From: Candidatus Omnitrophota bacterium
GTDB lineage: Bacteria; Omnitrophota; Gorgyraeia; B26-G9
Direction: 5' to 3'
Assembly (NCBI GenBank): GCA_043826565.1
Contig: JBDRPX010000019.1
Coordinates: 5,369 to 69,368 of the forward strand
DNA length: 64,000 nt
Shown: piece by piece, positions 2,991 through 63,330 of the stretch
Layout: every line of letters begins with the position of its first letter
Numbering within the stretch: position 1 is the stretch's first letter
Position numbers and translations under genes: made by a program
The notes under the pieces: model-generated
Databases searched by the model: none
What the model was told of the DNA's origin: nothing
Seen by the model: only the letters and a program-made list of their open reading frames with translations

Positions 2991-4013
2991 ATGTTAAGAT
3001 TTATAAGTGCGGGAGAGTCTCACGGAGAATGTATTATGGCTATTCTGGAAGGACTGCCTGCGGGATTGAGGGTAAAAGAAGATGTGATTAATAAAGATCT
3101 TTATCGTCGTCAGCAGGGATATGGCCGCGGCGGGAGAATGAAGATTGAGACAGACAAAGTAAAGATACTTTCCGGGATAAAAGGCGGGTTGACCCTCGGC
3201 AGTCCGGTAGCCTTAATGGTCAAAAACAAGGATTTTAAAATTAATGAATTGCCTCCGATCACGGAGCCTCGTCCCGGGCACGCGGATTTGGCCGGTGCGA
3301 TTAAGTATGGATTTTCGGATATCCGGTGTGTTTTAGAAAGAGCTTCCGCCCGCGAAACAGTTATTCGGGTGGCTGCCGGAGCCTTATGTAAAATTTTTCT
3401 AAATGAATTCAATATAAATATAAACAGTAAGGTAATTAGTGTCGGCGGGCAGACAAGCAATAAAAAAATTAAAGAATTGATTGATCAAGCTAAGAAAAAG
3501 GGAGATACCTTAGGCGGGGTATTTGAAGTCATTGCGGATAATGTGCCTGTAGGCCTGGGCACTCATGTTCATTATGACCGCCGTTTGGACGCGCGTCTTG
3601 CCGGGGCGTTGATGTCTATCCAGGGTATCAAGGGAGTTGAATTTGGTCTGGGTTTTGAAGCTGCTGACCGGCCGGGTTCAAAAGTGCATGACCAGATTTT
3701 TTATTCGCAGGAAAAAAGGTTTTTTAGAAAAACAAATAATGCCGGCGGATTAGAAGGCGGAATGAGTAACGGCGAGCCGATCATTGCGCGCTGCGCGATG
3801 AAGCCGATCGCGACACTGCAAAAACCGCTGCCGACTATTGATATGAAGACCAAAAAGGAAGTTCTTGCGTCGATACAGCGCTCGGACATATCTGCGGTAG
3901 AAGCTGCCGGAGTAGTTGGAGAGGCAATGACCGCGATTGTGCTTACGGATGTGTTTTTGGAAAGATTCGGACAGGATGATTTAAGGAAAATCAAAAAAGC
4001 GTATAAGTTATAA
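2991..4013 (+). CDS. aroC: chorismate synthase
   Basis: 'GESHG' and 'RPGHAD' chorismate synthase signatures. 340 aa. Confidence 0.9.
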   Translation: MLRFISAGESHGECIMAILEGLPAGLRVKEDVINKDLYRRQQGYGRGGRMKIETDKVKILSGIKGGLTLGSPVALMVKNKDFKINELPPITEPRPGHADLAGAIKYGFSDIRCVLERASARETVIRVAAGALCKIFLNEFNININSKVISVGGQTSNKKIKELIDQAKKKGDTLGGVFEVIADNVPVGLGTHVHYDRRLDARLAGALMSIQGIKGVEFGLGFEAADRPGSKVHDQIFYSQEKRFFRKTNNAGGLEGGMSNGEPIIARCAMKPIATLQKPLPTIDMKTKKEVLASIQRSDISAVEAAGVVGEAMTAIVLTDVFLERFGQDDLRKIKKAYKL

Positions 4014-4081
4014 TTGAAAATTTAAAAATAATTTATATTTTGTATTTTAACAAAGTAATACTGAAATAATAAAACATGATC

Positions 4082-4218
4082 TTTGATATCACAAAAACAC
4101 GTCTTTGAACTAAGTCCGCTGCGGCATCGTGCCTTGCGGCCGCGCGTTCTTACTATTTTGACATCCTTGTCAAAATTACGTTCGAAAGCGCCGTTCAAAG
4201 AGAATTTTTGTGTTATCT
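4082..4218. ncRNA. candidate structured RNA / repeat element, copy 1 (homologous to 63331-63466)
   Basis: About 85% identity to the second copy. Compensatory changes preserve three stems (GGCAtcgTGCC vs GTCATccATGAC; TTTTGACAtcctTGTCAAAA vs TTTTTGCAtcgTGCAAAAA; a closing stem gatatcAcaaaaa/tttttgTgttatc vs gatatcGcaaaaa/tttttgCgctatc). GC-rich relative to its surroundings. Confidence 0.4.
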
Positions 4219-4266
4219 ATAGGGTATTGTTTGTAATTTGTCTATTGTATATTGGAATTTACAATT

Positions 4267-4779
4267 ATGGGTATTCCGTTAAAGCATGAAAAAGTTAGAC
4301 TGATAATCGGACTTATTGGCAAAGAGTCTTTGTTTGATGATGTAAAAAAAGTTCTTATTAAAAAATTCGGTTCAATTGATTATGAAAGCGAATGTCTGAA
4401 CTTTAATTTCACGGATTACTATAATGCGGAAATTGGTACTGATCTTAAACGAAAATTCCTGAGTTTTAAAAAATATTTCCTGCCTGAAGAACTTTCCGAC
4501 ATTAAACTTTTCACGAATAAAGTTGAGGAAAAATTTCAAGAAATGCCGGGAAAACGCCGGGTAAATATTGACCCCGGATACCTTAATTTATCCAAACTGG
4601 TTTTAGCGACCACAAAAGATCATCAGCATCGTTTATATGTGGGTAAAGGTATATTTGCCGAAGTGACCCTGCGCTACCGGGGGAAGACTTTTATGGGCTG
4701 GGATTGGACCTATCCTGATTACCAAAGCGTTGAATATATAAAAATATTTAATCATATACGCAATAATTTATTAAAGTAA
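4267..4779 (+). CDS. DUF4416-family hypothetical protein
   Basis: About 170 aa with the 'IGLIG...LFD....L...FG.ID..S....F..TDYY..E.G' pattern typical of DUF4416. The ORF-track start at 4252 is a TTG; the ATG at 4267 is more likely. Confidence 0.5.
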   Translation: MGIPLKHEKVRLIIGLIGKESLFDDVKKVLIKKFGSIDYESECLNFNFTDYYNAEIGTDLKRKFLSFKKYFLPEELSDIKLFTNKVEEKFQEMPGKRRVNIDPGYLNLSKLVLATTKDHQHRLYVGKGIFAEVTLRYRGKTFMGWDWTYPDYQSVEYIKIFNHIRNNLLK

Positions 4780-4794
4780 AGAGTGATAAATGGT

Positions 4795-4950
4795 AAAAAA
4801 TAAACAATATACAATGGACAAATTACAACCAAATTCCAATATACAAATCAACAAACTGAAATAATGCTGTGAAGTGAAATAAGTAAATTTTTTGAGTATT
4901 GGGAATTGTATATTGTTTGTAATTTGGATTTTGTTTATTGTAATTTAATA
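4795..4950. repeat. ~150-bp intergenic element with internal inverted symmetry, copy 1 (paralog of 34388-34553)
   Basis: Shares the blocks 'caaattccaatatacaaat' and 'ttgggaattgtatattgYttgtaatttggattttgtttattgtaa' with the second copy. It ends 5-10 bp before the start codon of the M48 protease gene. Confidence 0.5.
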
Positions 4951-4954
4951 AAAT

Positions 4955-6151
4955 ATGGCAGGGCAAGAAAAATGGTTAACTGTTGAAAAAGAGGTAAATA
5001 AAGTGAAGGATGACACTCGAGCGTATTACTCCAAGAAAAAAAATAACTTATTGTTTGTGAAAGCTGGGCTTACTTTTCTGTTTTTACTGTTAATGGTGTT
5101 TAGTTTTGCAATTCCACTGCGTAATTTTATTACGGCATTCACGGAGAATTCAGTTATTGTTATTACGGTATACTCATTATTGGTTTGCTTGTTTTATGTT
5201 GTTTTTACCGGCGGAGTAAAATATTACGAAGAATTTTTTCTAAAAACTAAACTAGATCTTTCCGACCAATCCCTGACCGAATGGTTAAGGCAGGCTGCTA
5301 TTGACGAAACAATTTTTTTCAGCATTTTTTTTGTCAGCGCTCAAATGATATATTTTTTAATGGAAACACATTCCCGCTGGTGGTGGCTCTCGGCAGCGGT
5401 AATCTGGGTGTTTTTTAGAATTATCATGGTTAAGCTGGTGCCGGAATTTATCACGCCTTTATTTGCGCGGTTTCTTCCGATTAGTGATGAGGGATTAAAA
5501 AAAAGGCTTATTTTTTTAGCGGATTCTGTTAATATAAAAATTGATGATGTTTATATTATAAAAAGAGAAAAAAATGATCCGCAGGAACAAACGGTTTTTG
5601 TTGACCCCGGGGTTAAACGCCGGATCGTTTTAGGGGAGGGTGTATTAGGATATGCGCCGGAAGAAATTGAGGTTATGGCAGCGCATGAGTTAGCCCATCA
5701 TTATTATGGCCATGTTTGGAAGAAGTTAATGATAAAAGGGCTGGGAGTAGTTGTGATCTTTTTTCTTGTCGGAGTATTGTTCGGTCCGATAGCCAGGGCA
5801 TTAGGGTATGTACCGGTTACCAGTGTGGCAACACTACCGCTTTTGGCAGCTTTATTTTTTATTTTTAGTTTTCTGGCCATGCCTGTATTTAATATGTTTA
5901 GCCGGGATATGGATGCTGAGGCGGATAGTTTCGCGCTGCAATTAACCAAATCTCCGGATGCTTTTGTTTCGGTAATGATCAGAATAAGTCAGCAGGGATT
6001 TGTTGATCCAAATCCGAATCGCTTTATTGAGATGTTCTTATTTGCCGAGCCGTCGATAAATAAACGTATATTTATGGCTGAAGACTATGCTCAGGAATTA
6101 ACCTTTCATCAGAAGCGCAATCAAACTTTGGGTGAAGGTGGTCTATTATAG
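4955..6151 (+). CDS. M48-family integral-membrane zinc metalloprotease (HtpX/Ste24-like)
   Basis: HExxH motif 'HELAHHYYGH' plus a downstream 'EADSFAL' third ligand. Multiple TM helices. Confidence 0.75.
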   Translation: MAGQEKWLTVEKEVNKVKDDTRAYYSKKKNNLLFVKAGLTFLFLLLMVFSFAIPLRNFITAFTENSVIVITVYSLLVCLFYVVFTGGVKYYEEFFLKTKLDLSDQSLTEWLRQAAIDETIFFSIFFVSAQMIYFLMETHSRWWWLSAAVIWVFFRIIMVKLVPEFITPLFARFLPISDEGLKKRLIFLADSVNIKIDDVYIIKREKNDPQEQTVFVDPGVKRRIVLGEGVLGYAPEEIEVMAAHELAHHYYGHVWKKLMIKGLGVVVIFFLVGVLFGPIARALGYVPVTSVATLPLLAALFFIFSFLAMPVFNMFSRDMDAEADSFALQLTKSPDAFVSVMIRISQQGFVDPNPNRFIEMFLFAEPSINKRIFMAEDYAQELTFHQKRNQTLGEGGLL

Positions 6152-6271
6152 GATGTCTTTGGTGATGCAAAGACCTTGACAGAAAAATATTTAATATGAT
6201 ACACTGCATTTATAGTTAAAATCACAAAACAATGAAAATTTTAGATATAAAATATATTAATAATTTTTGGG

Positions 6272-6301
6272 ATAAAGACGCTTTATCCCTTTTTTATTAG
6301 T
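6272..6301 (+). terminator. rho-independent terminator
   Basis: Stem gggataaag/ctttatccc followed by TTTTTTATT. Confidence 0.5.
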
Positions 6302-6370
6302 AATTTTAAGCATATATTAAGTATATATTAAGAAGACAAAATTGCGTAACTGATTGTGTTGTAAAATGAT

Positions 6371-10824: not shown

Positions 10825-10865
10825 TCAAAGCCTCATGTCTCAAGCCGCAAGTCTCAAGTTAAGAA

Positions 10866-10912
10866 GAATACAGAAGGCAGAAAACAGAGGACAGATAGAA
10901 AACTAGAAGATA
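10866..10912 (+). repeat. purine-rich 'ACAGAAGRCAGAAAACAGAGGACAGA' dispersed repeat, copy at the era 3' end
   Basis: Near-identical to the minus-strand sequence at 58030-58072. Related to the AGAAGAC x4 array at 51817-51850. Confidence 0.5.
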
Positions 10913-11064
10913 AAAGCAAAACAGATGCTCGACAACTGATCCCATATCTGAAGGGCAAACGCGCCGCTCAAACCTCAAGGGTTCCACGAGCATAGCGAAG
11001 TGCAAGAGAATTTCTGATCTTTCTAATTTAAAGTTTATATATGGACGAAGATTTGAAATTCTTA

Positions 11065-11092
11065 TTGACATTACATTTTGGTATAGTATAAT
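11065..11092 (+). promoter_or_regulatory. consensus sigma70-type promoter (TTGACA-16-TATAAT)
   Basis: Perfect -35 at 11065-11070 and perfect -10 at 11087-11092, about 410 nt upstream of the major OMP gene. Confidence 0.4.
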
Positions 11093-11503
11093 AAGCATCA
11101 GGGAAGAAAACTGGTAAAATTGTATAATTTTGCCGGGCTAAGGGGGCGGGAAAATATGTTGATTTCAGACGATAACACCATCCAGCTAGCCTCTTAATAA
11201 AAAGATTTCCCCATAAAATATTATTGACAAGAAAAGCGGTTTATGCTAGTCTGGTCATAGTATAAAATTCACAAAGATTTTGCAATTGTGAATAGGTGAT
11301 TTGATATATTCATCATAAATAACTTCAAATCCGGCACAAAAGGAGGTGGTGGAAAAGATTGCCAGAGGTTATGACAATTATGGTGATAATTGCAGTACAT
11401 AAAAAGGTAACTTCTGGGTAACTATAGGAACACTAATTTCTATAGCCCTGGTTTAAAGAATAAAGAGAAAATAGTTTTACAATTTACTAGGAGGTAAAAG
11501 ATT

Positions 11504-12811: not shown

Positions 12812-12827
12812 TCAAGTCTTAAGCGTT

Positions 12828-12871
12828 AAAAAAGCCCTTACCCTTTTTGGGTAAGGGCTTTTCTTTTTTCT
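12828..12871 (+). terminator. rho-independent terminator
   Basis: gcccttaccc-ttttt-gggtaagggc stem followed by TTTTCTTTTTT. Confidence 0.7.
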
Positions 12872-13141
12872 AGGGACTTTTGCAAAACGTCCATCTGCGG
12901 CGTTTTCTCCTCATTCGCTTGTGCGACGTCCTAGGAGAAGGACGCCTCCGCACTCATTCGTCAAGGCCTTGCATCTGTAATCAGGGACTGTTGTTCCATT
13001 TTCTACTTGACAGTTTAGGGTTTTTTTTGTAGTATAGAATAAAACTGTAAATGTAGTTTTATCAGGTTGTTCAGTTAAATATCCTATGGGTTCCCGTGGG
13101 GGGGATTTAATTTATCCAATACATTATGGGGGTAATCGGAA

Positions 13142-18916: not shown

Positions 18917-18924
18917 TTTGTTAA

Positions 18925-19100
18925 AAAGTTAAAATGCAAAAATCAAAACTCAAAAATACAAGTCAAAAATCAGAATTGATAAAAAATTATTATAAAGAAA
19001 TGATTTTTAAATATTTTATAACACATAATAATAGATTAATTAATGAGTTTTAAATTTTGAATTGCAATTTTGACTTTTGAATTTTAAGTTTTGACATAAG
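18925..19100. repeat. inverted pair of A-rich 'TCAAAA/TTTTGA' heptamer arrays flanking an AT-rich core
   Basis: Left arm 'gcaaaaatcaaaactcaaaaatacaagtcaaaaatcag', right arm 'caattttgacttttgaattttaagttttgac'. Confidence 0.5.
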
Positions 19101-19153
19101 GTTGAATTTATTAAAAATATTGTTTAACATTAGATAGTTTCGGGAGATAGTTA

Positions 19154-21301: not shown

Positions 21302-21334
21302 TCCGCCAAGTGGCCGCTGAAAGCGGACAATGGC

Positions 21335-21395
21335 GAGACCTCCCGCCTAGCCATCTTTAGAATGAGCTTCTTGGGCGGCGAGGCTGGCGCCGAGG
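21335..21395. repeat. GC-rich hairpin motif 'CCCGCCTAGC...TGAGCT...GGCGAGGCTGGC' (second copy at 28085-28125)
   Basis: Shared 10-12-nt arms in two intergenic regions with a variable loop. Embedded in a ~120-nt GC-rich island (21300-21420). Confidence 0.35.
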
Positions 21396-21546
21396 GCAAC
21401 TTCGGAGAAGTATCCCGGCGGGAAAATAATTAGAGGGGATCTAACCTGATAGATAGTGGTCTGATCCCTTGATTTTTAGTAAAAAGGTTGACGCCTGGAT
21501 TTAAATACGATATTATATCTGCAATCATTACACAGGATATGTTATT

Positions 21547-23611: not shown

Positions 23612-24484
23612 ATGGAACGTTATATAGATAAGTTTTTGAGTTATTTAAAAGTAGAAAAAGATTCTTCTATCCATACTGTAATAAACTATAGTGTGGATTT
23701 AAAAGATTTTGCTTCCTTTATCCAGGATAAAGATATCAATGATATCGATGTCCTGGATGTCCGAAAATTTTTAGTTTCTTTACGCCAAAAGAATTTCAAG
23801 AAAGTAAGTATCGCCCGGAAGATGGCTTGTTTGCGTTCATTTTTTAAGTTCTTATGCCGGGAAGGTCATTGTAAATCCAATCCGATGGTGGGGTTAGTCG
23901 GACCTAAACTGGATAAAAAACTGCCGATTTTCTTAGGTGAAGATGATGTCAGCAAGCTTTTGGATACTCCGGTAGAAAAGGATTTGCCGGGGTTAAGGGA
24001 TAAAGCGATATTGGAAACATTATACAGTACCGGGATCCGGGTTAGTGAGCTGGTGGGGCTGAATATTGAAAATGTGGATTTTATCGGAGGAGTTATTAAA
24101 GTATTCGGCAAGGGCCGGAAAGAACGGCTTGCTCCGATCGGAGATAAGGCTTTGCGGGCGATTAAAAATTATATTGATAAGCGCAACAAGGCTGCTCCTT
24201 CATCCGGCCGGGCTTTATTTTTGAATAAAGATAAAAAACGCCTTACAGATAGAAGTATCCGGAATATAGTCGAGAAATATATAAAAGTTGCCAGTCTGAG
24301 AAATGATATTTCGCCGCATAGCTTGAGACATTCTTTTGCTACGCATCTTCTGAACCGGGGAGCAGATTTGCGTGCGGTTCAGGAGTTGCTGGGACACGCT
24401 AATTTATCCACAACTCAGATATACACGCATCTTTCCACGGAAAAATTAAAGAATGTTTATGAAAAAACACATCCGAGGGCATAG
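23612..24484 (+). CDS. tyrosine site-specific recombinase XerC/XerD
   Basis: 'LRHSFATHLLNRGADLRAVQELLGHANLSTTQIYTHL' catalytic R-H-R-Y region. Confidence 0.85.
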   Translation: MERYIDKFLSYLKVEKDSSIHTVINYSVDLKDFASFIQDKDINDIDVLDVRKFLVSLRQKNFKKVSIARKMACLRSFFKFLCREGHCKSNPMVGLVGPKLDKKLPIFLGEDDVSKLLDTPVEKDLPGLRDKAILETLYSTGIRVSELVGLNIENVDFIGGVIKVFGKGRKERLAPIGDKALRAIKNYIDKRNKAAPSSGRALFLNKDKKRLTDRSIRNIVEKYIKVASLRNDISPHSLRHSFATHLLNRGADLRAVQELLGHANLSTTQIYTHLSTEKLKNVYEKTHPRA

Positions 24485-24494
24485 CCTAAAGTTA

Positions 24495-24550
24495 AAAATC
24501 AAAAATCAAAAGTCAAAAGTCAAAATGACAAATCAAAATTCAAAAATAAT
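24495..24550. repeat. 'AAAATCAAAAGTCAAAAGTCAAAATGACAAATCAAAATTCAAAA' heptamer array
   Basis: Tandem (A/G)TCAAAA units between xerC and the likely waaA start. Confidence 0.5.
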
Positions 24551-25859
24551 AGAGAAAAACAATCCGGTAGGTATCCCTCGTGCTGGAGCCGTTATTCTGG
24601 ATATATTATATGTAATACTTTCGGTTTTTTACTTGCCTACTTTTCTGTTTAACGGTAAGCATCGTCCGGGAATCGTTGAGCGTTGCGGAATTTATCCACA
24701 TGATGTGCTAAGGTTTTTAGCTAATAGCCGTCAGGTTATTTGGCTGCATGCAGTCAGTGTGGGTGAAATAAGAGCAGCGGTTCCTTTAATTGAAGCCCTT
24801 AGAGAAAAATATCCCGAAGCTCAGTTATTAATCTCGACAATTACTCCTACGGGGAATGCTGTTGCCCGGCAAATTGCCGTAGAGGGGGAACTTGTTATAT
24901 ATTTTCCGTTTGATTTAAGTCCGATTGTGCGAAAAGCAATTTCGATTATTAGGCCTAAAATGATTTTGATTATGGAAACAGAACTATGGCCAAATTTTAT
25001 TACCGAAGCATTCCGACAAGATATTCCCATAGCGATCATTAACGGACGCATTTCGGACAATGCTTTTTTGCGTTACAAAAAGGCCGGGTGGTTTTTTCGG
25101 CCGATCTTGAAAAACATAGATTTGTTTTGCATGCAGACACCGACTGACGCAAAAAGGATAGAGGCGATCGGTGCCCGGAAAAATAATATCCGGGTTACGG
25201 GGAACCTGAAATTTGACCAAATTATCCAGCCGGGAGAGGAAAATACCCTGGATCTTGGCCTGACCAAGAACCAACGTCTTATTGTTGCCGGAAGCACTCA
25301 TGATCAGGAGGAGCAGATTATTACGCAGGTGTTCATAAAATTAAAAGCTAAATATCCGGATATCCGTCTTTTGATTGCTCCCCGGCATCCGCATCGGGCC
25401 AAGGCCGTAGAGCAGGTCATTAAAGACTGTGGACTGACGGCTTTTTGTCTTAGTCAGATCAAACAGCAGGAAACAGCACCGGGTAATCAGGAAGTGCTTA
25501 TTCTTGATACGATGGGTATGCTTAATAATATTTACGCATTAGCGGATATTGTATTTATCGGCGGAAGCCTGGTCCCTCATGGCGGGCATAATCCTATTGA
25601 ACCGGCGGTTTGCGGTAAGCCGGTTGTTTTTGGTAAGCATATGTTTAACTTTGCGGAAATTGCCGGTATTTTTCTAAGCAACCAGGCGGCTGTTAGCGTT
25701 AAAGATGAGCAGGAACTGTATGATACTTTGCATAGTTTGCTTAAAGACGCAGATAAAAGAAGGGATCTTGCCCGGCGGGCACAGAAAGTTATTTCCGATA
25801 ATCGGGGCAGTGTGAAAAGGGTGATGGATATTATTACAGAGCAGTTTAAAATTGACTAG
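24525..25859 (+). CDS. waaA: 3-deoxy-D-manno-octulosonic acid (Kdo) transferase
   Basis: N-terminal TM helix, then 'VIWLHAVSVGEIRAAVPLIEAL' matching the WaaA/KdtA N-domain. The track start at 24453 lies inside the repeat array; the ATG at 24525 is preferred. Confidence 0.8.
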   Translation: MTNQNSKIIEKNNPVGIPRAGAVILDILYVILSVFYLPTFLFNGKHRPGIVERCGIYPHDVLRFLANSRQVIWLHAVSVGEIRAAVPLIEALREKYPEAQLLISTITPTGNAVARQIAVEGELVIYFPFDLSPIVRKAISIIRPKMILIMETELWPNFITEAFRQDIPIAIINGRISDNAFLRYKKAGWFFRPILKNIDLFCMQTPTDAKRIEAIGARKNNIRVTGNLKFDQIIQPGEENTLDLGLTKNQRLIVAGSTHDQEEQIITQVFIKLKAKYPDIRLLIAPRHPHRAKAVEQVIKDCGLTAFCLSQIKQQETAPGNQEVLILDTMGMLNNIYALADIVFIGGSLVPHGGHNPIEPAVCGKPVVFGKHMFNFAEIAGIFLSNQAAVSVKDEQELYDTLHSLLKDADKRRDLARRAQKVISDNRGSVKRVMDIITEQFKID

Positions 25860-25994: not shown

Positions 25995-27821
25995 ATGTTT
26001 AATTCTAATAATGGGTTAAGGGTAACCTGGTTAATAATTTTAAGCGTAATGATTATTGTTGTTCCGGCTCAGGCAGAGACAGAGGTTTATGACCTAGACC
26101 CGGTATTTGTGCGTCCGGCTTTGCTTGATAGCGCTTATGATGATTCGTTTCTTCGGACAGAATATATTGTAAATCCGGAGCGGGAATATGAGCAGGCGCT
26201 TACAGAAGTTATCCAAAATAATTCTTTGATAGATATGCAGCGGCGCGGCTCCTTTGGTACTCAAGCTGATGTTCAGATAAGAGGAGGAAGCTTTGAGCAA
26301 ACCGATGTTCTGATTGACGGGGTAAAGGTTAATGACCCGCAAACCGGGCATTTTAATATGGATATACCTTTATTTATCTCTGATATCGATAGAGTTGTTA
26401 TTGTGTCCGGATCAGCAGCAAGTGCTTATGGTGCCGGCAGACAGGGGGGCTCTATTCATATTGTTACCAAGAGGCCCGAAGAAAAGGCAATTAAAGCACA
26501 GGCAATCTTTGGTGCCAACTCTTTTTCCAGCCAATCGGTATCCTCCAGTTATGCGTTGGGCGAAGCTAATTTCAGAAGCTCTCTTGGCAGGGCCTCTTCC
26601 GGCGGATATCGTCATAATACCGGATTTGAGAGTCTGCAGTTTTCTCAGAGCGCTTTTTGGAAAAGCGGATATGGAGATGTGGATTTTACTTTGGGAGTAC
26701 TGGATAAAGAATTCGGGGCCAATGGATTTTATTCAGAATTTTTCCCCGAGCAGTTTGAACAGACCAAGACATTATTCAGCAGTATGGGAATTAAATCCCA
26801 AGCAGGTGATTTGCAGTTTAATCCGAAAGTATATGTAAGACGTCATAAAGACCGTTTTTTACTTGATCAGACAAGACCGAATTGGTATGAAAATCGGCAT
26901 ACTAGTTATGTGACCGGAGCAAAGATAGATTGCTTAAGGGATTTATCTAAAGGAAAGTTATTTTTCGGTACAGATACCGCCCAGGAGAGTATTAAAAGTA
27001 CTAATCTGGGGAAGCAAAAACGATTGAAAAATACAGTTTATTCAGAATATAGTCTTTCGCAAGACCGGGTTATTTTTGCTATTGGTTTAACCGGATGTTT
27101 TTATGAGGATTACAAAGATTATGTCTCCCCGGATATTAGTGCGGGATATTGGTTGAACGATGATTTTAAAGCAAGAGCATCATTTAATCGTTCATTCAGA
27201 GTCCCAACGTTTACTGAACTTTATTACGTGAGTCCGGCAAATATGGGTAATGCTAATCTTGTTCCAGAGCGTTCAAGTAACTATGAAGCCGGAATTGATT
27301 ATATTCGTCATGATTTTTCTTCCTCAGTAACCGCTTTTACACGAAGAGGGAAAAATTTAATTGATTGGGTCAGAGCTCCGGCAGCAACTGTTTATCAGAT
27401 CCAGAATGTAGCTGATGTTGATACTGAAGGTATTGAAGTAAAGTTAACTGTTTATCCGGAAAAAAAGAATAGTTGTTTGCCCGGGTGTCAGGAGTTATTT
27501 TTTGGGTATTCTTATTTGGATAAACAAAGAAAAGAGAACGGGCTTGTTTCTAAATACGTATTTGATTATTTAAAACATAAATTTGTATTGGGAACAGAGG
27601 TCAAGTTGCCGGCGGATATGACGGCGGGTTTAAATCTTAATTATTTGCAGAGAATATATCAGGCGGGTGATTTTGTATTAAACGCAAAGCTGTCCAAAAA
27701 ATTTGAAGAATATAATGTGTTTTTAAAAGCAGACAATATATTAAACCACGGATATTCCGAAAGAAGTAATATTCCGATGCCCGGCAGATGGCTGTTTTTA
27801 GGTGTAGAAACGCAGTGGTGA
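25995..27821 (+). CDS. TonB-dependent outer-membrane receptor (small, BtuB-like size)
   Basis: Signal peptide. Plug domain. C-terminal '...LGVETQW' aromatic terminus. 608 aa. Confidence 0.75.
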   Translation: MFNSNNGLRVTWLIILSVMIIVVPAQAETEVYDLDPVFVRPALLDSAYDDSFLRTEYIVNPEREYEQALTEVIQNNSLIDMQRRGSFGTQADVQIRGGSFEQTDVLIDGVKVNDPQTGHFNMDIPLFISDIDRVVIVSGSAASAYGAGRQGGSIHIVTKRPEEKAIKAQAIFGANSFSSQSVSSSYALGEANFRSSLGRASSGGYRHNTGFESLQFSQSAFWKSGYGDVDFTLGVLDKEFGANGFYSEFFPEQFEQTKTLFSSMGIKSQAGDLQFNPKVYVRRHKDRFLLDQTRPNWYENRHTSYVTGAKIDCLRDLSKGKLFFGTDTAQESIKSTNLGKQKRLKNTVYSEYSLSQDRVIFAIGLTGCFYEDYKDYVSPDISAGYWLNDDFKARASFNRSFRVPTFTELYYVSPANMGNANLVPERSSNYEAGIDYIRHDFSSSVTAFTRRGKNLIDWVRAPAATVYQIQNVADVDTEGIEVKLTVYPEKKNSCLPGCQELFFGYSYLDKQRKENGLVSKYVFDYLKHKFVLGTEVKLPADMTAGLNLNYLQRIYQAGDFVLNAKLSKKFEEYNVFLKADNILNHGYSERSNIPMPGRWLFLGVETQW

Positions 27822-27924
27822 AAAATAAAGCGTATAGCGTTTAGCGGATAGGGAAAATCGGTAAGGGGAAAGATTGAGTCTTTTTTGAAAAATGTGATTG
27901 CAGACATATTAACATATTAAATAT

Positions 27925-28165
27925 CAAGAAGTTACAGATAGCTCAAAAGTTAAAATTCAAAATTCAAAATTGCAATTAAAAAATCAAAAGTTTAAAGATA
28001 CAATTGTTGAATATTATTGCGTATAAAATTATTGAAAACAAGAATGCTAAGTGTAAAAATGACATTAAGATGAATAACTTTTTAATTTTGCCTTGCCCGC
28101 CTAGCTGAGCTGGCGAGGCTGGCATTTTTGACATTTGCCTTTTGAGTTTTGATTTGGCAACTGGT
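27925..28165. repeat. inverted 'TCAAAA' heptamer arrays plus an embedded GC-rich hairpin motif (28085-28125)
   Basis: 'ctcaaaagttaaaattcaaaattcaaaattgcaattaaaaaatcaaaag' ... 'ttttgacatttgccttttgagttttgatttggc'. The core 'cccgcctagctgagctggcgaggctggc' matches 21335-21395. Confidence 0.5.
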
Positions 28166-28441: not shown

Positions 28442-31400
28442 ATGTTTAAATCAAGAAAAATTACAAAGGTAATTGCTGGCATTGTTCTGCAGGTGTTTTT
28501 CTTTTCAAATTTTGCTTTGTGCGGGGATATGAATATGTCTCCTGATAGGGTGCGGAAATCAGATACCCTTGCCCCCCATATCGCGATAGGAATATCTTCG
28601 ATGCAGCAGATGTTTGCAGATACAGTATATCCTAGATGGTCAGCCGGCCGGCAGCAGCTTTCCGTAAATACCGGTGCTAGCGAGAAAGTTTCAACAATAC
28701 ATACCATAGATAATTTAAAACAAAAAGTTAAAGCCGGTAAATCAAAAGGAGTTATTTTGGTAGCCGGAGGCGCCGGATATATCGGAGGGCATACTGACCG
28801 TGCTTTAATGCAATCCGGTTATGATATTGTAATTTTGGATAACCTGGTAAATGGCCGGCGTTTTGTAGTTGAGCGTAATCAGGCTTATGCTCAGGATAAT
28901 GATAAAATTTGTGTTTTTGAACAAGCAGATTTAAAAAATAGTGAAGATGTTCTCAAAAAATATAAAGAAGCGGGAATACCGATTGTCGGAACAATTCATT
29001 TTGCGGCATACATTGAAGTGGGAGTGTCCGTAGAGCGTCCGTGTGTTTATGCTTTAAATAATATTATTAATACTCTCCGGCTGCTTTATGCCGCAAAGAA
29101 ATATGGAGTTAAAAATATTGTATTTTCTTCGTCAGCCGCTGTATATGGGACTCAGAAGAAAATGCCTCTAGAGGAAGGCCGAAGAAAGCACCCCACCAGC
29201 CCTTATGGATTTAATAAATGGGTTATGGAATTAATGATTAAATCATTCCAGAAGCTGGGTATGTCTTGGATTGCCTTGCGTTATTTTAATGCTGCCGGGG
29301 CTGCTTCCGACGGAGCTTTAGGAGAATCTCATCCTCTTCCGGATTCACATGTAATCAGAGCGGTTTTTCGTAGATTTTTAGATGGATTGGCCGCGGCAAT
29401 ATTCGGCCGGGATTATCCCACGGCTGACGGTACTTGTGAACGTGATTATATCCATGTTGAGGATTTGGCAGACGCGCATGTCCGGGCAATTGAAGCTTTA
29501 ATTAACGGAAAAAACCAGGAAGCAATTAACCGAGCATATAATGTCGGAACCGGTGAAGGTCTTTCTGTGTTGGAGATGATTGGTCTGATTACTAAACTAA
29601 TGGGTAAGGTAGTTAAAAAATTCTTTGTCCGGGAAGAAGCCCGTCGAGCTGGTGATCCGCCGGCTTTGGTCGCCGATTCCAGTGATATTCAAAGGAACCT
29701 GGGATGGAAAGCAATGCGTGATCCGCAGGTAATTGTAAAATCAGCGATTAAATGGGATATTTCTCCCCGTCAGCCGGAAGAAATTTATGAACCAAAGCCG
29801 CTTCCGAATATCTCAGAGTATGATGCTTATCAGGAAATCAAAAAAGTTTTAGCAGAAGATAAATTGCTGCCTTTGGGAGTAAAACTTTATATTAAGTGGA
29901 AACTTTTATGGGAGATTAGAACGGCATTAAAGCAGCGTTATGCTAAGGCGGTTAAGTTACTTAAGGCCAAACAGAAAATATATGCGGATAATTCTGACCT
30001 GCAGAAGATGATCAGTGCAAATCTTTTCTTGTTAGAAAAATATAAATGGATTAGCATTGCTGACTTAAGTTTGTTTGGTAAAGGATCAGCTTTTGAAAGA
30101 ATGGATTCTCTGCTTCGTTTTATCGAAAAAGTTCAATGGCCTAAATTAGATAAACTTCCGGAAGATAAAGCTGAGCGTGAGCAATATATTCTTCAAGATC
30201 CGATAGTTGCTGATTGTAAAGCCCAAGAAGCTGTAAAAAATACTTTTTCTTATGATCAGGGGCATGTATTTGATTATTGGCTTCAGTTAAGCAGTGAGGG
30301 AAAAAAGGAATTGTTGGGTTGTCTTACGGTGATTAATTTTGAAGAAGCGTTTAGGCTTTATCAGGAAAACGTAAAAAATAAACAGGATATTAAAGTTGAT
30401 TTCGAATCATTGCATGCGCCGTCAAATATGATGACTGCCGAAGAGGCATTGGCAAGTAATCAGCATTTAATGGCAAATGCTTTACGCATGGGTAAAGTCG
30501 CGGTTTATTTACTTGCCGGAGGCAGCGGAACGCGTTTAGATTATGACCATCCTAAAGGGATGTTTGAGTCCAGCCCATTAAGCGGAGCTTCTTTATATCA
30601 GCAGTTTGCGGATGAGGTTAGGGAGTTGGGTAATCGTTACGAAGCAAAAATACCTTTACTTGTGCAGACTAGTGAAGGCACGGATGAAGAAACAAAAGTA
30701 TTCTTTGCCAATAATAATGATTTTGGGATCCAGGATTCTACCCGGTTTGAACAGCAGCGGAGTTTTCCGGTATTTGATAAAGACGGAAAATTTATTCTGA
30801 CGACAAAGAGTTCTATTCAGATCGGCGGTTTTGGTCATGGAGATGTTACGGATTTTGTTTTACGGAAAAACGACGTGCGCGGCTGGCTGCAGGATAATTT
30901 TGGGACAAAATATGTACTCATGGTTCAGGTGGATAATCCGCTTGCGGTTAAGCAATTAGAGGCAATGTTAGCGGCGCATTTAAAGGATGAACAGCAGCGC
31001 GCATATAATGCTCCGGAAAATGCCGCACATATCAGTTATGGGCTTATTGAAAAACTGGCCCCGGATGACCGGTTGGGAAATCTGGCGGAAACTGAAGAGG
31101 GTTTGTGGCAGATGGTTGAGTATTCGGAAGTCGATCAGCTAAGTGAAGCGGCAAAAAAGAAGATTGTTTCTGATGTGGGCAGTCCGAATATTTTAATGAT
31201 AAGTTTAGACGGTTTAGATAAATTGCCGGCACTTTCAGTGCATGTTGACCGCGGCAAAAAAGTTTTTTCAATGCAGGCCGAGGGAAAGGTTCCCGGAGAT
31301 AAAATGGAAACATTTGTTTTTGATACCCGGGCTTATGGCGCGGCAGTGGTCTTACCTAGATACAGCTCGTTTGCTCCGACTAAGAAAAGAGAGCGTGATG

Positions 31401-33169: not shown

Positions 33170-33352
33170 TTAAATAGAGAGAAAAAATAAGAAAAGTTTT
33201 ACTGATTTTTGATCGCTGTCTTCTGATTTTTGGAGTTTGACATATCCGGGGGATTTTGGGATAATCAGAAGGGGGACAGCACCTTTAAATTCACCGCTCC
33301 CGTTTTGGTTGATTACTAGTCGAGGAGCGGTTTTCTTATTTCTGAGGATAAT

Positions 33353-34384: not shown

Positions 34385-34387
34385 AAT

Positions 34388-34553
34388 ATATGAAAATTAT
34401 AAATTACAAATTACAACTGCCAAATTACAAACAAATTCCAATATACAAATAACAATAAACAAAAATATTTTGTGTTTTGAAATTTGGGAATTGTATATTG
34501 CTTGTAATTTGGATTTTGTTTATTGTAAATTAACAATTGCACTATTTATGAGG
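34388..34553. repeat. ~150-bp intergenic element, copy 2 (paralog of 4795-4950)
   Basis: Near-identical 45-nt block 'ttgggaattgtatattgcttgtaatttggattttgtttattgtaa', ending about 25 nt before the start codon of the NYN/YacP-like gene. Confidence 0.5.
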
Positions 34554-34558
34554 TTTTT

Positions 34559-35050
34559 ATGTCCCTCCACTATATAATTGATGGATATAATGTTATCAAG
34601 CAGGTTACTTTTTTAACCGGTAAAAAACTTAGAGACGGAAGAGACGGGCTGGTAAGATTTATTGAGAAATACCGTCCTCAGGGAAGCGCGAAGAATGAAG
34701 TAACGATTGTTTTTGACGGTAAAGCGGAGATCAGCAGCCCGGCGATACAATCATCCGTACAGGTTATCTTTAGTAAGAATGAGACCGCGGATGATAAGAT
34801 AAAAAGGATGGTAGAGTCTGCCGGTAATTCCCGGCAGATGGTTATTGTCAGTGATGATAAGGAAATCATGTTTTACTGCCGTTCTTTAGGGGCGAATGTA
34901 AAATCCGTAAAGGAGTTTTTAGATAGTTCTTTTGCGGCTAAGAACAGGCTCAAACCTGCGGAAAAAATAGAGAAGGCAGAATTAAGCAGTGATATAGCGG
35001 ATAAAATTACTGAAGATCTAAAAAAACTTTGGCTGAATAAAGAAAATTGA
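34559..35050 (+). CDS. NYN/YacP-like (PIN-related) putative ribonuclease
   Basis: 'LHYIIDGYNVI' N-terminal motif typical of the YacP/NYN domain. 163 aa. Confidence 0.6.
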   Translation: MSLHYIIDGYNVIKQVTFLTGKKLRDGRDGLVRFIEKYRPQGSAKNEVTIVFDGKAEISSPAIQSSVQVIFSKNETADDKIKRMVESAGNSRQMVIVSDDKEIMFYCRSLGANVKSVKEFLDSSFAAKNRLKPAEKIEKAELSSDIADKITEDLKKLWLNKEN

Positions 35051-35180
35051 AAGTTGAATATTGAAAGTAGATAGGCGAAAAAATATTTTTTTAATTTTAC
35101 AATTTTCAATGTTTAATTTTCTATAGTCAGTTTTTATTTTTTTACAATTCTCAACTTTCAACTGTCAATATTCATATTAT
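35050..35180. repeat. inverted 'TTGAAAGTTGA' repeat pair
   Basis: 'ttgaaagttgaatattgaaagt' ... 'caattctcaactttcaactgtcaatattc'. Confidence 0.45.
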
Positions 35181-46103: not shown

Positions 46104-46124
46104 GCACTAAATTACGAATTAAAA

Positions 46125-46165
46125 CCCCGTTAGGCTAGGTCCCTGGCGGGGTTTTTTTATTACCC
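46125..46165 (+). terminator. rho-independent terminator
   Basis: aaccccg...cggggtt stem followed by TTTTTTATT. Confidence 0.65.
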
Positions 46166-46343
46166 GGATATTTAATTCTATGATCTACTTTGAATCCAAA
46201 TTGCTACCCAACTGCTTCGTTATGCTCGGTCGGATTTCCTCGACGTGCCTCAGAGGGCACGCCTGTGGAATCCTTGGTCGCAAGCCTTGCATTTGGGCAA
46301 CACTTTGAATTCTCGCTACGATAATAGTATTAAATATCCGGGT
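46163..46343. other. GC-rich structured element bounded by 14-bp perfect inverted repeats (candidate ncRNA or MITE)
   Basis: 'cccggatatttaat' at 46163 and 'attaaatatccggg' at 46330. The interior has nested hairpins (ggatttcc.../ggaatcc; gtgcc-tcagag-ggcac) and far higher GC than the flanks. Confidence 0.35.
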
Positions 46344-46436
46344 TAAAACAATTGATTTTTCGACTTAATAAGGATATACTAACTGGAAAAGGGTTATATT
46401 CCCGGATGCGGGATTTAAAAGGTATAAGTTTAAGCT

Positions 46437-46742: not shown

Positions 46743-46830
46743 TAAGAAGTAAATAAAGTAGCGAGTAGCAAGTAGAGAGTAGCGAGATAAAAAATAATAA
46801 GAAGCCCGAGAAAAGAGGTAGAGAAGAAAA

Positions 46831-48531: not shown

Positions 48532-48534
48532 ATA

Positions 48535-48732
48535 AATTAAAAGTCAAAAATCAAAGGTCAAAAGGCAAAAGTGCAACTCAAAATTCAAAACTAGTTAAAC
48601 AGTAGGAAAGATAACTGAGATTAGTGAAATATTGAGGATGCTTACTGCAGGAAGATTACAATCGAAGAACAAAAAGTTTTTATTTTTAAATTATATTTTT
48701 GAGTTTTGAATTCTAAATTTTGAGTTTTAACA
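48535..48732. repeat. inverted pair of 'TCAAAA' heptamer arrays
   Basis: 'aaagtcaaaaatcaaaggtcaaaaggcaaaagtgcaactcaaaattcaaaac' ... 'tttgagttttgaattctaaattttgagttttaac'. Confidence 0.5.
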
Positions 48733-48743
48733 GGAGGTTTATA

Positions 48744-51314: not shown

Positions 51315-51820
51315 AAAAGTCTCCGGTCACAGGTCACAAGTCACAAGTAAAAAAAATAAACAAAATACAAAAAGAGATTATTTGTTTCTTGCAAGGGGAT
51401 ATTCCCCTAAAGCCTAATCCGTATACTGGCTTAGCAAAAAAACTTGATATTGCCGAGGATGAAATTATCCGGCAGATAAAAGTATTAAAAAAACAAGGAT
51501 ATATCCGGAGGTTTGGCGCGATTTTAAGTCATCACAAGGTCGGCTTAAACAGCAATTGTATGTGTGTCTGGAATGTGCCTAAGCTTAAGATAAACAAAAT
51601 ATCAAAAGGCGCATTCGGAAGACCGGAAATTAGCCATTGTTATCTAAGAAAGACTACCCCGGATTGGCCGTATAATTTTTATACCATGATACACGCTGGT
51701 TCACCGAAGCAGTGTATGCAGATAATCAATGAACTTAGTAAACAGAATGGTGTTAGTGATTATAAGATGCTGTTTACAAAAAAACAATTTAAAAAAACCA
51801 GTCCGGTGTATAAAATATAG
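51311..51820 (+). CDS. siroheme decarboxylase second subunit (AhbB/NirG-H family)
   Basis: 'ICFLQGDIPLKPNPYTGLAKKLDIAEDEIIRQIKVLKKQGYIRRFGAIL' paralogous HTH + ligand-domain layout. ATGA overlap with the upstream gene. Confidence 0.65.
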   Translation: MKKSPVTGHKSQVKKINKIQKEIICFLQGDIPLKPNPYTGLAKKLDIAEDEIIRQIKVLKKQGYIRRFGAILSHHKVGLNSNCMCVWNVPKLKINKISKGAFGRPEISHCYLRKTTPDWPYNFYTMIHAGSPKQCMQIINELSKQNGVSDYKMLFTKKQFKKTSPVYKI

Positions 51821-51905
51821 AAGACAGAAGACAGAAGACAGAAGACAGAAAGAATACTAGATACTAAAATTTTTTAAATTTCTGACCTCTGTTTTCTGAT
51901 ATCTG
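51817..51905. repeat. AGAAGAC x4 tandem heptamer array followed by an inverted copy of the 'CAGAAAACAGAGGNCAGA' motif
   Basis: 'agaagacagaagacagaagacagaagacagaaag' ... 'tctgacctctgttttctgatatctg' (reverse complement 'cagatatcagaaaacagaggtcaga'). Confidence 0.5.
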
Positions 51906-51935
51906 ATTTCTTTAGATTGAAAGGAAGAGAAAGTT

Positions 51936-53222: not shown

Positions 53223-53374
53223 GCTATAAGGATTAAGAAAAAGTTACGAGTAACAGTTTAAAAGATAAAAGCAGTTTAATCTCAGGATATGCTTTTAAAA
53301 AATTGTTTTTATGTCTTGGATGTTGAGATTTGTTTGTCTGCCGGGAAGCGAGATCTCGCCAAGGGCGGATAATT

Positions 53375-53510
53375 CGGGAATTGCAAATATCAAAATGACA
53401 GAGAAAAATGAAAAAAGAAGTTAAAAAGTACTATAATCAATGTTAATGTTTTTTATTTTTGACTTTTAACTTGTCATTTTGCATTTTGACTTTTGATTTT
53501 TGAGTTAATA
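53375..53510. repeat. inverted pair of 'TCAAAA/ATGACA' A-rich arrays upstream of tatA
   Basis: 'caaatatcaaaatgacagagaaaaatgaaaaaag' ... 'tttttgacttttaacttgtcattttgcattttgacttttgatttttgag'. Confidence 0.5.
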
Positions 53511-53524
53511 ATAGGAGATATTAT

Positions 53525-63301: not shown

Positions 63302-63330
63302 ATGTGTCCTATAATAAATATGTGTTAATT

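What the first reader, a model, noticed from the sequence alone, without database searches (positions are those of the whole stretch)
4795..4950. Paralogous ~150-bp element sitting directly on start codons of two unrelated genes (plus a motif copy on a third)
4795-4950 lies upstream of the M48 protease and 34388-34553 upstream of the NYN/YacP-like gene. They share a nearly identical 45-nt block (ttgggaattgtatattgYttgtaatttggattttgtttattgtaa) ending 5-25 bp before the ATG, and an upstream block (caaattccaatatacaaat) that partly inverts the first. The core 'ttgtatattggaattt' appears again at 4233-4256, immediately before the DUF4416 gene start. Conserved placement at translation starts suggests a shared cis-regulatory module (promoter/operator or 5'-UTR structure) defining a small regulon, or a MITE that carries an outward promoter.
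Basis: seen in the sequence. Interest (0 to 1): 0.6.

Follow-up and report, generated by a model that had tools for sequence, protein, structure and literature searches.

The report
Dispersed hairpin repeat, not a regulon signal
The two look-alike 150-bp stretches are copies of a small, mobile-type hairpin repeat that was inserted between formerly abutting genes of an uncultured Omnitrophota bacterium, one of several such repeat families built from 7-base units, and not a shared genetic switch.

Summary
A 45-nt block (44/45 identical) and a 19-nt upstream block (19/19) occur at both loci, and a half copy abuts the DUF4416 start. None is expected by chance.

The regulon/promoter reading is not supported:
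- Neither copy has a conserved sense promoter, and there is no Rfam match.
- The likely M48 start is GTG 5003, 57 nt downstream of the element.
- In distant syntenic relatives, DUF4416/M48 and RlmN/YacP overlap or lie 1-5 nt apart. The elements are therefore lineage-specific insertions.

Each copy is a quasi-palindrome with an A-rich arm, a variable loop and a T-rich arm. Homologous copies in another Omnitrophota MAG carry IS6-like terminal inverted repeats and perfect 8-bp target-site duplications, so there the family is a genuine MITE. The window copies lack those ends.

The element is one flavour of a window-wide class. I found 26 degenerate 7-nt-periodic arrays against 0.8 expected. Almost all lie in spacers or on gene 3' ends, and many form inverted pairs. 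The closest precedent is the heptameric intergenic repeats of Xanthomonas.

Arm mismatches show no RNA-strand signature, and arms match partners from other loci as well as their own. This points to dispersed repeat families, not locus-specific structures. The RNA-level effect is inferred only.

The parts
4785..4950 (.). Family-B hairpin element, copy 1, between DUF4416 (stop 4777-4779) and M48. A-rich left arm about 4795-4858, unique loop about 4859-4898, T-rich right arm 4899-4946.
   Evidence: D5, D18, I22; nhmmer 4791-4950, E 1e-37
34386..34548 (.). Family-B hairpin element, copy 2, between RlmN (stop 34382-34384) and the YacP/NYN gene (ATG 34559). Arms 34391-34464 and 34468-34541, 3-nt loop.
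   Evidence: I2; nhmmer 34392-34548, E 1e-31
4212..4266 (+). Half copy of family B (T-rich right-arm type only), abutting the DUF4416 start codon (ATG 4267).
   Evidence: D5 69%, I10, I12; E 8e-4
5003..6151 (+). M48 protease gene with its probable true start (GTG 5003, AGAGG 8 nt upstream). ATG 4955 adds 16 codons that no homologue has.
18924..19101 (.). Flavour-A heptamer hairpin (CAAAAnT arm / AnTTTTG arm) between the CheC-like and FtsA-like genes. The same junction is 11-22 nt in relatives.
24481..24561 (+). Flavour-A single A-rich array directly after the XerC-like stop codon.
   Evidence: (I1)
27933..28163 (.). Flavour-A pair with a long loop, preceded by an AGCGTAT array at 27819-27857 just after the stop codon.
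35034..35174 (.). Flavour-D hairpin (GAAAGTT arm / TTTCAAC arm) spanning the YacP-to-HI0933-like spacer. The YacP stop codon lies inside the left array.
   Evidence: (I19, D19)
48532..48733 (.). Flavour-A hairpin filling the spacer upstream of the ALAD gene.
51806..51914 (.). Flavour-C hairpin: four perfect AGAAGAC units opposite TTTCTGA-type units.
   Evidence: 100% matches; z -3.3
53384..53512 (.). Flavour-A hairpin ending 13 nt before the TatA-like start. An AAGCTGT array at 53196-53240 overlaps the upstream stop codon.
   Evidence: (I1, I5)
46753..46788 (+). Single GTAGCGA array at a gene 3' end. Its reverse-complement flavour (CTACTTG) is at 63488-63513, after the stop codon of a minus-strand gene.

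Best explanation
The two sequences, plus the half copy at 4212-4266, belong to a dispersed, non-coding, quasi-palindromic repeat family (MITE-like or REPIN-like). Each copy has an A-rich arm, a variable loop and a T-rich arm, and both arms are made of degenerate 7-nt units.

Shown:
- They are lineage-specific insertions into gene junctions inside operons that are overlapping or 1-5 nt apart in relatives.
- Their closeness to stop and start codons follows from that. A repeat survives only in the spacer, so it fills the spacer.
- The family moves or has moved by transposition. Sister copies in another Omnitrophota MAG are about 270-bp elements with IS6-like 13-14-bp terminal inverted repeats and perfect 8-bp target-site duplications.
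- At least five other flavours of the same architecture occupy about half of the longer spacers in this window.

Inferred, not shown:
- The array-bearing spacers lack canonical promoters and terminators, which do occur in other spacers. The elements are therefore probably co-transcribed and fold into long, imperfect AU-rich intercistronic hairpins.
- The likeliest consequence is loss of the former stop/start coupling, with at most a modest, non-specific effect on mRNA processing or stability.
- They do not co-regulate the unrelated genes downstream of them.
For: - Repeat family: exact or near-exact blocks. An nhmmer profile finds 2 full and 1 half copy in the window, 3 copies in JAHISK01 and 1 partial copy in L003. 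A short-read assembly contig breaks inside the right arm.
- Transposition signature in JAHISK01: TIR GGTAATGTCAAAA versus GGTTCTGTCAAAA (11/13). The 8-bp duplications AAAGTACA (L002) and GAAATGTT (L004) sit exactly where the similarity between the two copies ends.
- The IS6 family has 14-bp IRs starting GGTTCTGT..., makes 8-bp direct repeats and has known MITEs (PMC7986276, PMC2920175).
- Empty sites: DUF4416/M48 overlap by 8 nt (L009) or are 1 nt apart (L010). RlmN/YacP are 5 nt apart (L006) or overlap (L007).
- Orientation relative to the downstream gene differs between genomes.
- One copy lies between divergent genes on a contig whose flanking gene has CPR-type (Parcubacteria/Paceibacterota) best named hits, and a relative with a 96% identical flanking protein lacks the block.
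- No shared promoter or terminator and no Rfam hit.
- Class-level evidence: intergenic autocorrelation is 0.361 at lag 7 against a baseline of about 0.30. There are 26 period-7 arrays against 0.84 in shuffles, and 14 of 31 spacers of 40 nt or more carry one.
- Left arms complement right arms of other loci of the same flavour as well as their own.
- Arm mismatches are mostly transversions (176), with no excess of sense-strand G-U pairs (40 versus 27).
Against: - The window copies lack the IS6-like termini (at chance level). Their candidate duplications (ATATATGA/ATTTATGA at copy 2, 7/8) are not significant.
- No transposase was seen.
- The relatives that provide the empty sites are distant (51-67% protein identity). 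'Insertion' cannot be told apart from in-situ growth of an array, and nothing can be dated.
- The right arm is better conserved than the left arm or the loop, and a 27-34-nt block is identical in three MAGs. That could reflect constraint and not recent movement.
- A-rich arrays always lie on the stop-codon side and T-rich arrays on the start-codon side, and a similar array (ATAGTTATGAATTAC...) follows the YacP stop codon in two distant genomes. Both hint at selection.
- Why the arms are 7-nt periodic is unexplained.
- Co-transcription was not observed.
Confidence: 0.6

Rival explanations
1. Selected intercistronic RNA hairpin. Whatever its origin, the element is kept because the transcribed stem does something: it protects or processes the polycistronic mRNA (like REP/BIME or Correia elements), or it brings the upstream stop codon next to the downstream start codon so that ribosome hand-over survives the long spacer.
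For: - Hairpins span whole spacers. Left arms start about 0-14 nt after, or slightly before, the stop codon, and right arms end 0-58 nt before the start codon.
- Array spacers lack canonical promoters and terminators, whereas other spacers have them.
- Polarity is constant: A-rich 5' arm, U-rich 3' arm.
- The gene pairs concerned overlap or abut in relatives.
- An array of the same flavour follows the YacP stop codon in L005 and L008, although their YacP proteins are only 59% identical.
- Folding z-scores range from about -0.7 to -3.3; the two copies of the finding score -2.6 and -2.7.
Against: - Stems are only about 70% complementary. Mismatches are mostly transversions, with no sense-strand G-U enrichment.
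- No locus-specific co-variation: arms pair equally well with partners from other loci.
- The consensus stem of the family is almost invariant, with only 2 compensatory pairs.
- The minus strand folds as well or better for copy 2.
- Many arrays are single arms.
- Relatives manage without the elements.
- The constant polarity is automatic for any A-arm/T-arm palindrome whichever way it inserts.
Confidence: 0.2
2. Locally generated simple-sequence repeats. Heptamer arrays arise in place by replication slippage (the heptanucleotide bias described for many bacteria), and inverted partners arise or are kept alike by template switching within quasi-palindromes. No transposition is involved.
For: - Strong, specific 7-nt periodicity with many unrelated unit sequences, including four perfect AGAAGAC units.
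- Arrays overlap gene 3' ends.
- Precedents: heptameric intergenic repeats in Xanthomonas and Nostoc, on average 28 nt from the upstream ORF, with 70-75 inverted pairs (PMC4692102); TAACTGA repeats next to start codons (PMC4679880).
- The window copies have no TIR or TSD.
Against: - Local growth does not explain 44/45 identity between loci 30 kb apart.
- It does not explain 27-34-nt identity among three MAGs.
- It does not explain the family block structure of the arm matrix.
- It does not explain the TIR plus perfect TSDs in JAHISK01.
Confidence: 0.13
3. Shared cis-regulatory module (promoter, operator or 5'-UTR structure) that co-regulates M48, YacP and DUF4416 as a small regulon.
For: - A highly conserved right arm lies upstream of three genes.
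- One copy (L003) sits upstream of a TGnTATAAT-type -10 box.
Against: - No shared -35/-10 on the sense strand; promoter-like counts equal the shuffled expectation.
- A strong RlmN promoter (TTGACA-17-GATAAT) lies upstream at 33237.
- The element is absent at the same genes in relatives.
- The M48 start is 57 nt downstream of the element.
- The element is in the opposite orientation in JAHISK01.
- In other genomes the flanking genes are unrelated: a GT4 glycosyltransferase, a zinc-ribbon protein and a DAO-type oxidoreductase.
- No Rfam match.
Confidence: 0.05

Closest known systems
IS6/IS26-family MITEs (ISfinder; Varani et al. 2021, PMC7986276)
   Same: The JAHISK01 homologues are about 270 bp and non-coding. 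Their 13-14-bp terminal inverted repeats begin GGT(T/A)(C/A)TGT..CAAA (compare the IS6 IR GGTTCTGTTGCAAAGT), and they have perfect 8-bp target duplications. IS6 MITEs of 227 and 336 bp are on record.
   Different: The window copies lack these termini and have no demonstrable duplication. No IS6 transposase was seen. The interior is a long quasi-palindrome of 7-nt units, which is not an IS6 feature. The TIR resemblance rests on 8+4 bases.
Heptameric intergenic repeats of Xanthomonas (GGGAATC) and Nostoc (GGGGAYT), Rehm et al. 2015 (PMC4692102); heptanucleotide long SSRs of Mrazek et al. 2007
   Same: Degenerate 7-nt tandem units. About 90% are intergenic, mostly between co-directional genes and close to the upstream ORF. 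Many occur as convergent pairs able to form stem-loops. They are usually transcribed, and their function is unknown.
   Different: Here the units are AT-rich and cannot form quadruplexes. There are many unit flavours per genome instead of one. Whole hairpins recur as near-identical dispersed copies, and one family shows transposon ends.
TAACTGA direct repeats of marine Beggiatoaceae, cyanobacteria and Bacteroidetes (MacGregor 2015, PMC4679880); cyanobacterial STRR heptamers
   Same: Short heptamer arrays lying a few nucleotides upstream of start codons of functionally unrelated genes, often without a Shine-Dalgarno sequence. Their patchy distribution across phyla suggests horizontal spread.
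   Different: Those repeats use a single unit sequence, are direct repeats only, and have no paired A-rich array at the upstream stop codon.
REP/BIME/REPIN, ERIC and Correia elements (from my own knowledge, not tested here)
   Same: Abundant extragenic palindromes co-transcribed within operons. REPINs are inverted doublets. Correia elements are MITEs cut by RNase III.
   Different: REPs are GC-rich 20-40-mers tied to a RAYT transposase. None of these has 7-nt-periodic arms. No RAYT or RNase III link was examined.

Membership tests
MITE (IS6-family type) | Small, non-coding, several dispersed near-identical copies | tested here: met
   Elements of 150-166 bp with no ORF. 2 full and 1 half copy in 64 kb. 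3 copies in the JAHISK01 loci. An assembly contig breaks inside the element.
MITE (IS6-family type) | Defined terminal inverted repeats matching a transposase family | tested here: not met
   In the window, GGTWMTGTCAAAA with up to 2 mismatches gives 12 hits against 7.2 expected, none at the element ends. The feature is met only in JAHISK01 (L002 688-700/945-957; L004 1059-1071/1316-1328).
MITE (IS6-family type) | Target-site duplication flanking the element | tested here: inconclusive
   Window: the best candidates are 7/8 matches (34386-34393 versus 34544-34551) and are not significant. JAHISK01: perfect 8-bp duplications at both copies.
MITE (IS6-family type) | Empty sites in related genomes | tested here: met
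   DUF4416/M48 and RlmN/YacP overlap or lie 1-5 nt apart in L006, L007, L009 and L010. These relatives are distant.
MITE (IS6-family type) | Cognate autonomous IS with the same ends in the genome | not testable with these tools
   Only one contig of the source MAG is available. No transposase lies in the window or the fetched loci.
Heptameric intergenic simple-sequence repeats (LSSR/STRR/Xanthomonas type) | Tandem units of 7 nt, far above chance | tested here: met
   Lag-7 autocorrelation peak. 19-26 arrays against 0.15-0.84 expected, while periods 5, 6 and 8-11 give 0-2. TRF period-7/14 rows.
Heptameric intergenic simple-sequence repeats (LSSR/STRR/Xanthomonas type) | Intergenic, near the upstream ORF, often as inverted pairs | tested here: met
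   24 of 26 arrays lie in spacers or on gene 3' ends. Stop-proximal arrays start about 0-14 nt after, or slightly before, the stop codon. There are 8 or more inverted pairs.
Heptameric intergenic simple-sequence repeats (LSSR/STRR/Xanthomonas type) | Copy-number variation by slippage between strains | not testable with these tools
   No close relatives or read-level data. The nearest YacP homologue is 67% identical.
Sigma-70 promoter / operator module | -35/-10 pair or operator conserved in all copies, in one orientation, and at orthologous genes | tested here: not met
   no shared site; opposite orientation; absent in relatives
Intrinsic terminator | GC-rich stem followed by a U tract | tested here: not met
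   No terminator-like site in 4000-5000, and none within the elements in 34300-35250. Canonical terminators exist elsewhere, e.g. near 12859, 46152 and 6290.
Known cis-regulatory or structured RNA (Rfam 15) | Match to a covariance model | tested here: not met
   0 hits at gathering threshold over the window. At E<=1 there is only a chance miRNA hit of 19.6 bits against a gathering score of 211.
REP/REPIN | 20-40-nt GC-rich palindrome with a conserved 5' tetranucleotide and an associated RAYT gene | not tested
   The arms are AT-rich and 45-75 nt long. No RAYT search was possible without the genome.

The most novel reading that the evidence does not exclude
The 7-nt-periodic arrays may be a functional system of Omnitrophota, possibly shared with CPR bacteria. 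In this reading, purine/A-rich arrays are placed at stop codons and U-rich arrays at start codons. They would be read by an unknown heptad-spaced RNA- or DNA-binding factor, or would act as hairpins that put the upstream stop codon next to the downstream start codon so that translational coupling or ribosome hand-over works across 100-250-nt spacers. The mobile copies would then be only the vehicle.
Probability: 0.1. Interest if true: 0.7.

Novelty: new variant of a known kind. Interest (0 to 1): 0.4.

Why it matters
For this finding the practical result is negative. M48, YacP and DUF4416 should not be annotated as a regulon, and the M48 start codon should be moved to GTG 5003.

More broadly, some Omnitrophota lineages carry dense families of hairpin repeats with 7-nt-periodic arms. 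They reach 0.4 arrays per kb here and in one relative, against 0.05 per kb in three others. These repeats break short-read assemblies, extend or replace gene 3' ends, and pull apart gene pairs that overlap or abut in relatives.

They link two phenomena that have been described separately. One is the unexplained bacterial excess of heptameric intergenic repeats. The other is MITE-type mobile elements. If this system could be followed in metagenomic time series or metatranscriptomes, it might show how such repeats arise and whether cells make use of them.

Tried and rejected
- **Metagenome scan.** I used protein homologues plus contig look-ups instead.
- **More of the source contig.** One protein was not on record, and the other returned only a 1.2-kb Logan contig.
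- **Promoter hypothesis.** No shared site.
- **Terminator hypothesis.** None found.
- **Known RNA families.** None found.
- **Phage origin.** The 27-mer is absent from viral contigs.
- **Covariation in the family-B stem.** 38 pairs, nearly all invariant, so uninformative.
- **RNA-strand test by wobble spectrum.** No bias.
- **Locus-specific arm co-evolution.** Rejected, because cross-locus pairs score as high as own pairs.
- **TSD search at the window copies.** Only 7/8-type matches, which are expected by chance.
- **IS6-like TIR in the window.** At chance level.
- **Stop codons in all three frames.** I considered that the arrays exist to supply these. It holds for the GTAGCGA, AAGCTGT and AGCGTAT flavours but not for the AAATTAC, CAAAAGT or AGAAGAC flavours, so I rejected it as a general rule.
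- **Rho-loading (YC-dimer) sites.** Considered and rejected, because most flavours lack regularly spaced YC.

Full report
**1. The observation**

The cited sequences are there.
- The 45-nt block TTGGGAATTGTATATTGYTTGTAATTTGGATTTTGTTTATTGTAA occurs at 4899-4943 and 34484-34528 and nowhere else. No match appeared in 100 dinucleotide-preserving shuffles.
- The upstream 19-mer is exact at 4830-4848 and 34432-34450.
- The 16-mer core is exact at 4245-4260, and as reverse complement inside both upstream blocks.
The right arms are 90% identical over 62 nt and the left arms 87% over 45 nt, while the loops are unrelated (families D5 and D18).
- Both loci are imperfect foldbacks. At the YacP locus the arms are 74 nt, 70% complementary, with a 3-nt loop. 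At the M48 locus they are 37 nt or more and 76% complementary (I2 and I22).
- As RNA they fold to -32.2 and -32.3 kcal/mol, z -2.6 and -2.7. The opposite strand folds about as well or better.

**2. Corrections to the placement**

ATG 4955 is unlikely to be the M48 start. The public annotation of the same protein is 382 aa, and six homologues align from the residue encoded at GTG 5003, which has AGAGG 8 nt upstream. The element therefore ends about 57 nt before that gene. The half copy at 4212-4266 does abut the DUF4416 ATG at 4267. The YacP copy is followed by a GAGG Shine-Dalgarno sequence and ATG 34559.

**3. The organism and the wider pattern**

The window comes from a Candidatus Omnitrophota MAG.

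Its intergenic DNA is full of degenerate tandem arrays with a 7-nt unit.
- Base identity at lag 7 is 0.361 and at lag 14 is 0.339, against a baseline of about 0.30. Coding DNA shows only the period of 3.
- A simple scan finds 19 arrays at a strict threshold against 0.15 in shuffles, and 26 at a looser one against 0.84 (maximum 4). Periods 5, 6 and 8-11 give 0-2.
- Tandem Repeats Finder reports the same arrays independently.
- 24 of the 26 lie in spacers or straddle gene 3' ends, and 14 of 31 spacers of 40 nt or more carry one.

The unit sequence differs by locus: CAAAAnT, AAATTAC (the finding), AGAAGAC, GAAAGTT, GTAGCGA, AGCGTAT, GTCACAG and AAGCTGT.

Many spacers hold an A-rich array just after the upstream stop codon and a complementary T-rich array just before the next start codon. 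The whole spacer can then fold back. On the sense strand, stop-proximal arrays are A-rich and start-proximal arrays are T-rich almost without exception.

**4. Not a promoter, terminator or known RNA**

- Promoter-like matches in and around both copies equal the shuffled expectation, and none is shared.
- Across the window, spacers with good TTGACA/TATAAT pairs or GC-rich stem-plus-T-run terminators are largely different from those carrying arrays. Examples of the former are 6152-6370, 12812-13141, 21302-21546, 33170-33352 and 46104-46429; the long 10825-11503 spacer holds both a strong promoter and arrays.
- RlmN has an 11/12 promoter at 33237, so YacP is most simply co-transcribed with it.
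- Rfam gives nothing.

**5. The elements are lineage-specific insertions**

Five syntenic loci from other Omnitrophota, with 51-67% protein identity, were recovered.
- RlmN and YacP are 5 nt apart in L006 and overlap in L007.
- DUF4416 and M48 overlap by 8 nt in L009 and are 1 nt apart in L010.
- The CheC-like/FtsA-like junction is 237 nt with a hairpin here. It is 11-22 nt in L005 and L007.

Array density is 0.41 per kb here and 0.39 per kb in L008. It is 0.05 per kb in L005, L006 and L007, and 0 in L009. The elements are not ancestral control regions of these genes.

**6. The family is mobile elsewhere**

The 27-mer core is exact in two contigs of Omnitrophota MAG JAHISK01 and in one contig binned as Saccharibacteria.

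The two JAHISK01 copies are about 270 bp and align with the window copies in both orientations. They carry the ends GGTAATGTCAAAA...TTTTGACAGAACC. They are flanked by perfect 8-bp duplications, AAAGTACA and GAAATGTT, exactly where the similarity between the copies stops.

IS6-family elements have 14-bp inverted repeats (an example begins GGTTCTGTTGCAAAGT), make 8-bp duplications and include MITEs. This is a resemblance, not a demonstrated membership.

In JAHISK01 the 27-mer lies in the arm distal to the downstream gene, the reverse of the window arrangement. The flanking genes there are unrelated to those in the window.

The third contig's flanking gene has Parcubacteria/Paceibacterota-type best named hits. 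A relative whose flanking protein is 96% identical lacks the exact block. This fits horizontal spread.

The window copies themselves show neither the IS6-like ends nor a significant duplication. Their own mobility is inferred.

**7. Structure under selection, or a repeat family?**

Three tests favour a repeat family.
- (i) Mismatch spectrum. Among 832 aligned arm positions in 13 hairpins, 589 are Watson-Crick, 40 would be G-U on the sense RNA and 27 on the antisense RNA, and 176 are transversions. There is no RNA-strand signature.
- (ii) Arm matrix. A left-arm by right-arm score matrix is block-structured by flavour. Within flavours A and B, an arm pairs with partners from other loci as well as with its own.
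- (iii) Consensus stem. The family-B consensus stem has 38 pairs, almost all invariant.

The constant A-arm-then-T-arm polarity is automatic for such a palindrome in either insertion orientation. It is therefore not evidence for function.

Some observations still hint at constraint.
- The right arm is conserved at 44/45.
- A 27-34-nt block is identical across three MAGs.
- A similar ATAGTTATGAATTAC... array follows the YacP stop codon in two genomes whose YacP proteins are only 59% identical.

**8. Comparison with known systems**

- Heptanucleotide repeats are the most over-represented long simple repeats in many bacteria (Mrazek 2007, as summarised in PMC4679880).
- In Xanthomonas, GGGAATC-type arrays are 89-93% intergenic and lie on average 28 nt from the upstream ORF. 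They form 70-75 inverted pairs per genome (PMC4692102).
- TAACTGA arrays sit just upstream of start codons in Beggiatoaceae.

The present case differs in three ways. It is AT-rich, it has many flavours per genome, and whole hairpins recur as dispersed copies with transposon ends in at least one genome. I found no description for Omnitrophota in the searchable literature.

**9. Verdict**

This is a real repeat, correctly spotted. It is best read as a MITE-like hairpin element inserted into operon spacers, and it is part of a lineage-specific bloom of heptamer-armed repeats. It is not a regulon signal. Any RNA-level role is unproven.

Noticed in passing
window 4076-4219 (+) and 63325-63467 (+); L009 159-287 (+); L005 10597-10716 (-); partial copies L007 5596-5653 and 5694-5732: A GC-rich element of about 135-145 nt is conserved across distant Omnitrophota (nhmmer E 1e-22 to 1e-48). 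Its consensus fold has 44 pairs, 15 of which show compensatory double changes in only 4 sequences; covariation term -5.81. Folding z is -5.2 and -4.0. There is no Rfam match. It occurs in both orientations relative to the flanking genes and in more than one copy per genome. It is a candidate new structured RNA or a structured mobile element.
   Followed up: partly
window 4955-5003: The M48 protease start codon is probably GTG 5003 and not ATG 4955. The 16 extra codons have no counterpart in six homologues or in the NCBI model.
   Followed up: yes
window 58000-59184 (-): The TsaD/Kae1-like gene contains a flavour-A-like heptamer array inside its coding region (58358-58395, encoding a K-rich stretch). 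Its last ~20 codons run into an AGAAGAC-type array (57995-58061). Arrays can therefore supply or replace C-termini. Similar overlaps with stop codons occur at 35035, 46753, 51806 and 53196.
   Followed up: partly
window 12870-13000, 21302-21440, 46190-46320, 28090-28125: Further GC-rich, strongly folding intergenic segments (z -5.6, -2.5 and -4.4 for the spacers containing the first three). Short motifs such as CCCGCCTAGC...GGCGAGGCTGGC and GCCTTGCAT recur among them by eye. nhmmer with two of them as single queries found no second copy in the sequence held.
   Followed up: partly
window 60377-60485: A 45-nt tandem repeat, 2.4 copies, 81% matches (TTAATCTGTTTTTATCATTGCGCTTCACTTTGTTCGCGGAATGAA), lies between two minus-strand genes. 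A Logan short-read contig ends inside it.
   Followed up: no
L008 5656-10001: In one relative, about 4.3 kb of toxin-antitoxin cassettes (ParE, YoeB/Phd, HepT/MNT, CopG-like) lies between RlmN and YacP. A purine-rich array remains after the RlmN stop codon and a pyrimidine-rich array before the YacP Shine-Dalgarno sequence.
   Followed up: no
window 28442-33169 (+): A 1575-aa fusion protein combines an NAD-dependent epimerase/dehydratase, a UDP-glucose pyrophosphorylase-like domain and a HAD hydrolase domain.
   Followed up: no
L004 3643-3790 and 2168-2180: JAHISK01 carries a third, more diverged family-B copy that ends in a TIR-like TTTTGACAATACC just upstream of a small zinc-ribbon gene. A solo TIR-like GGTAATGTCAAAA lies 1.6 kb away.
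   Followed up: partly
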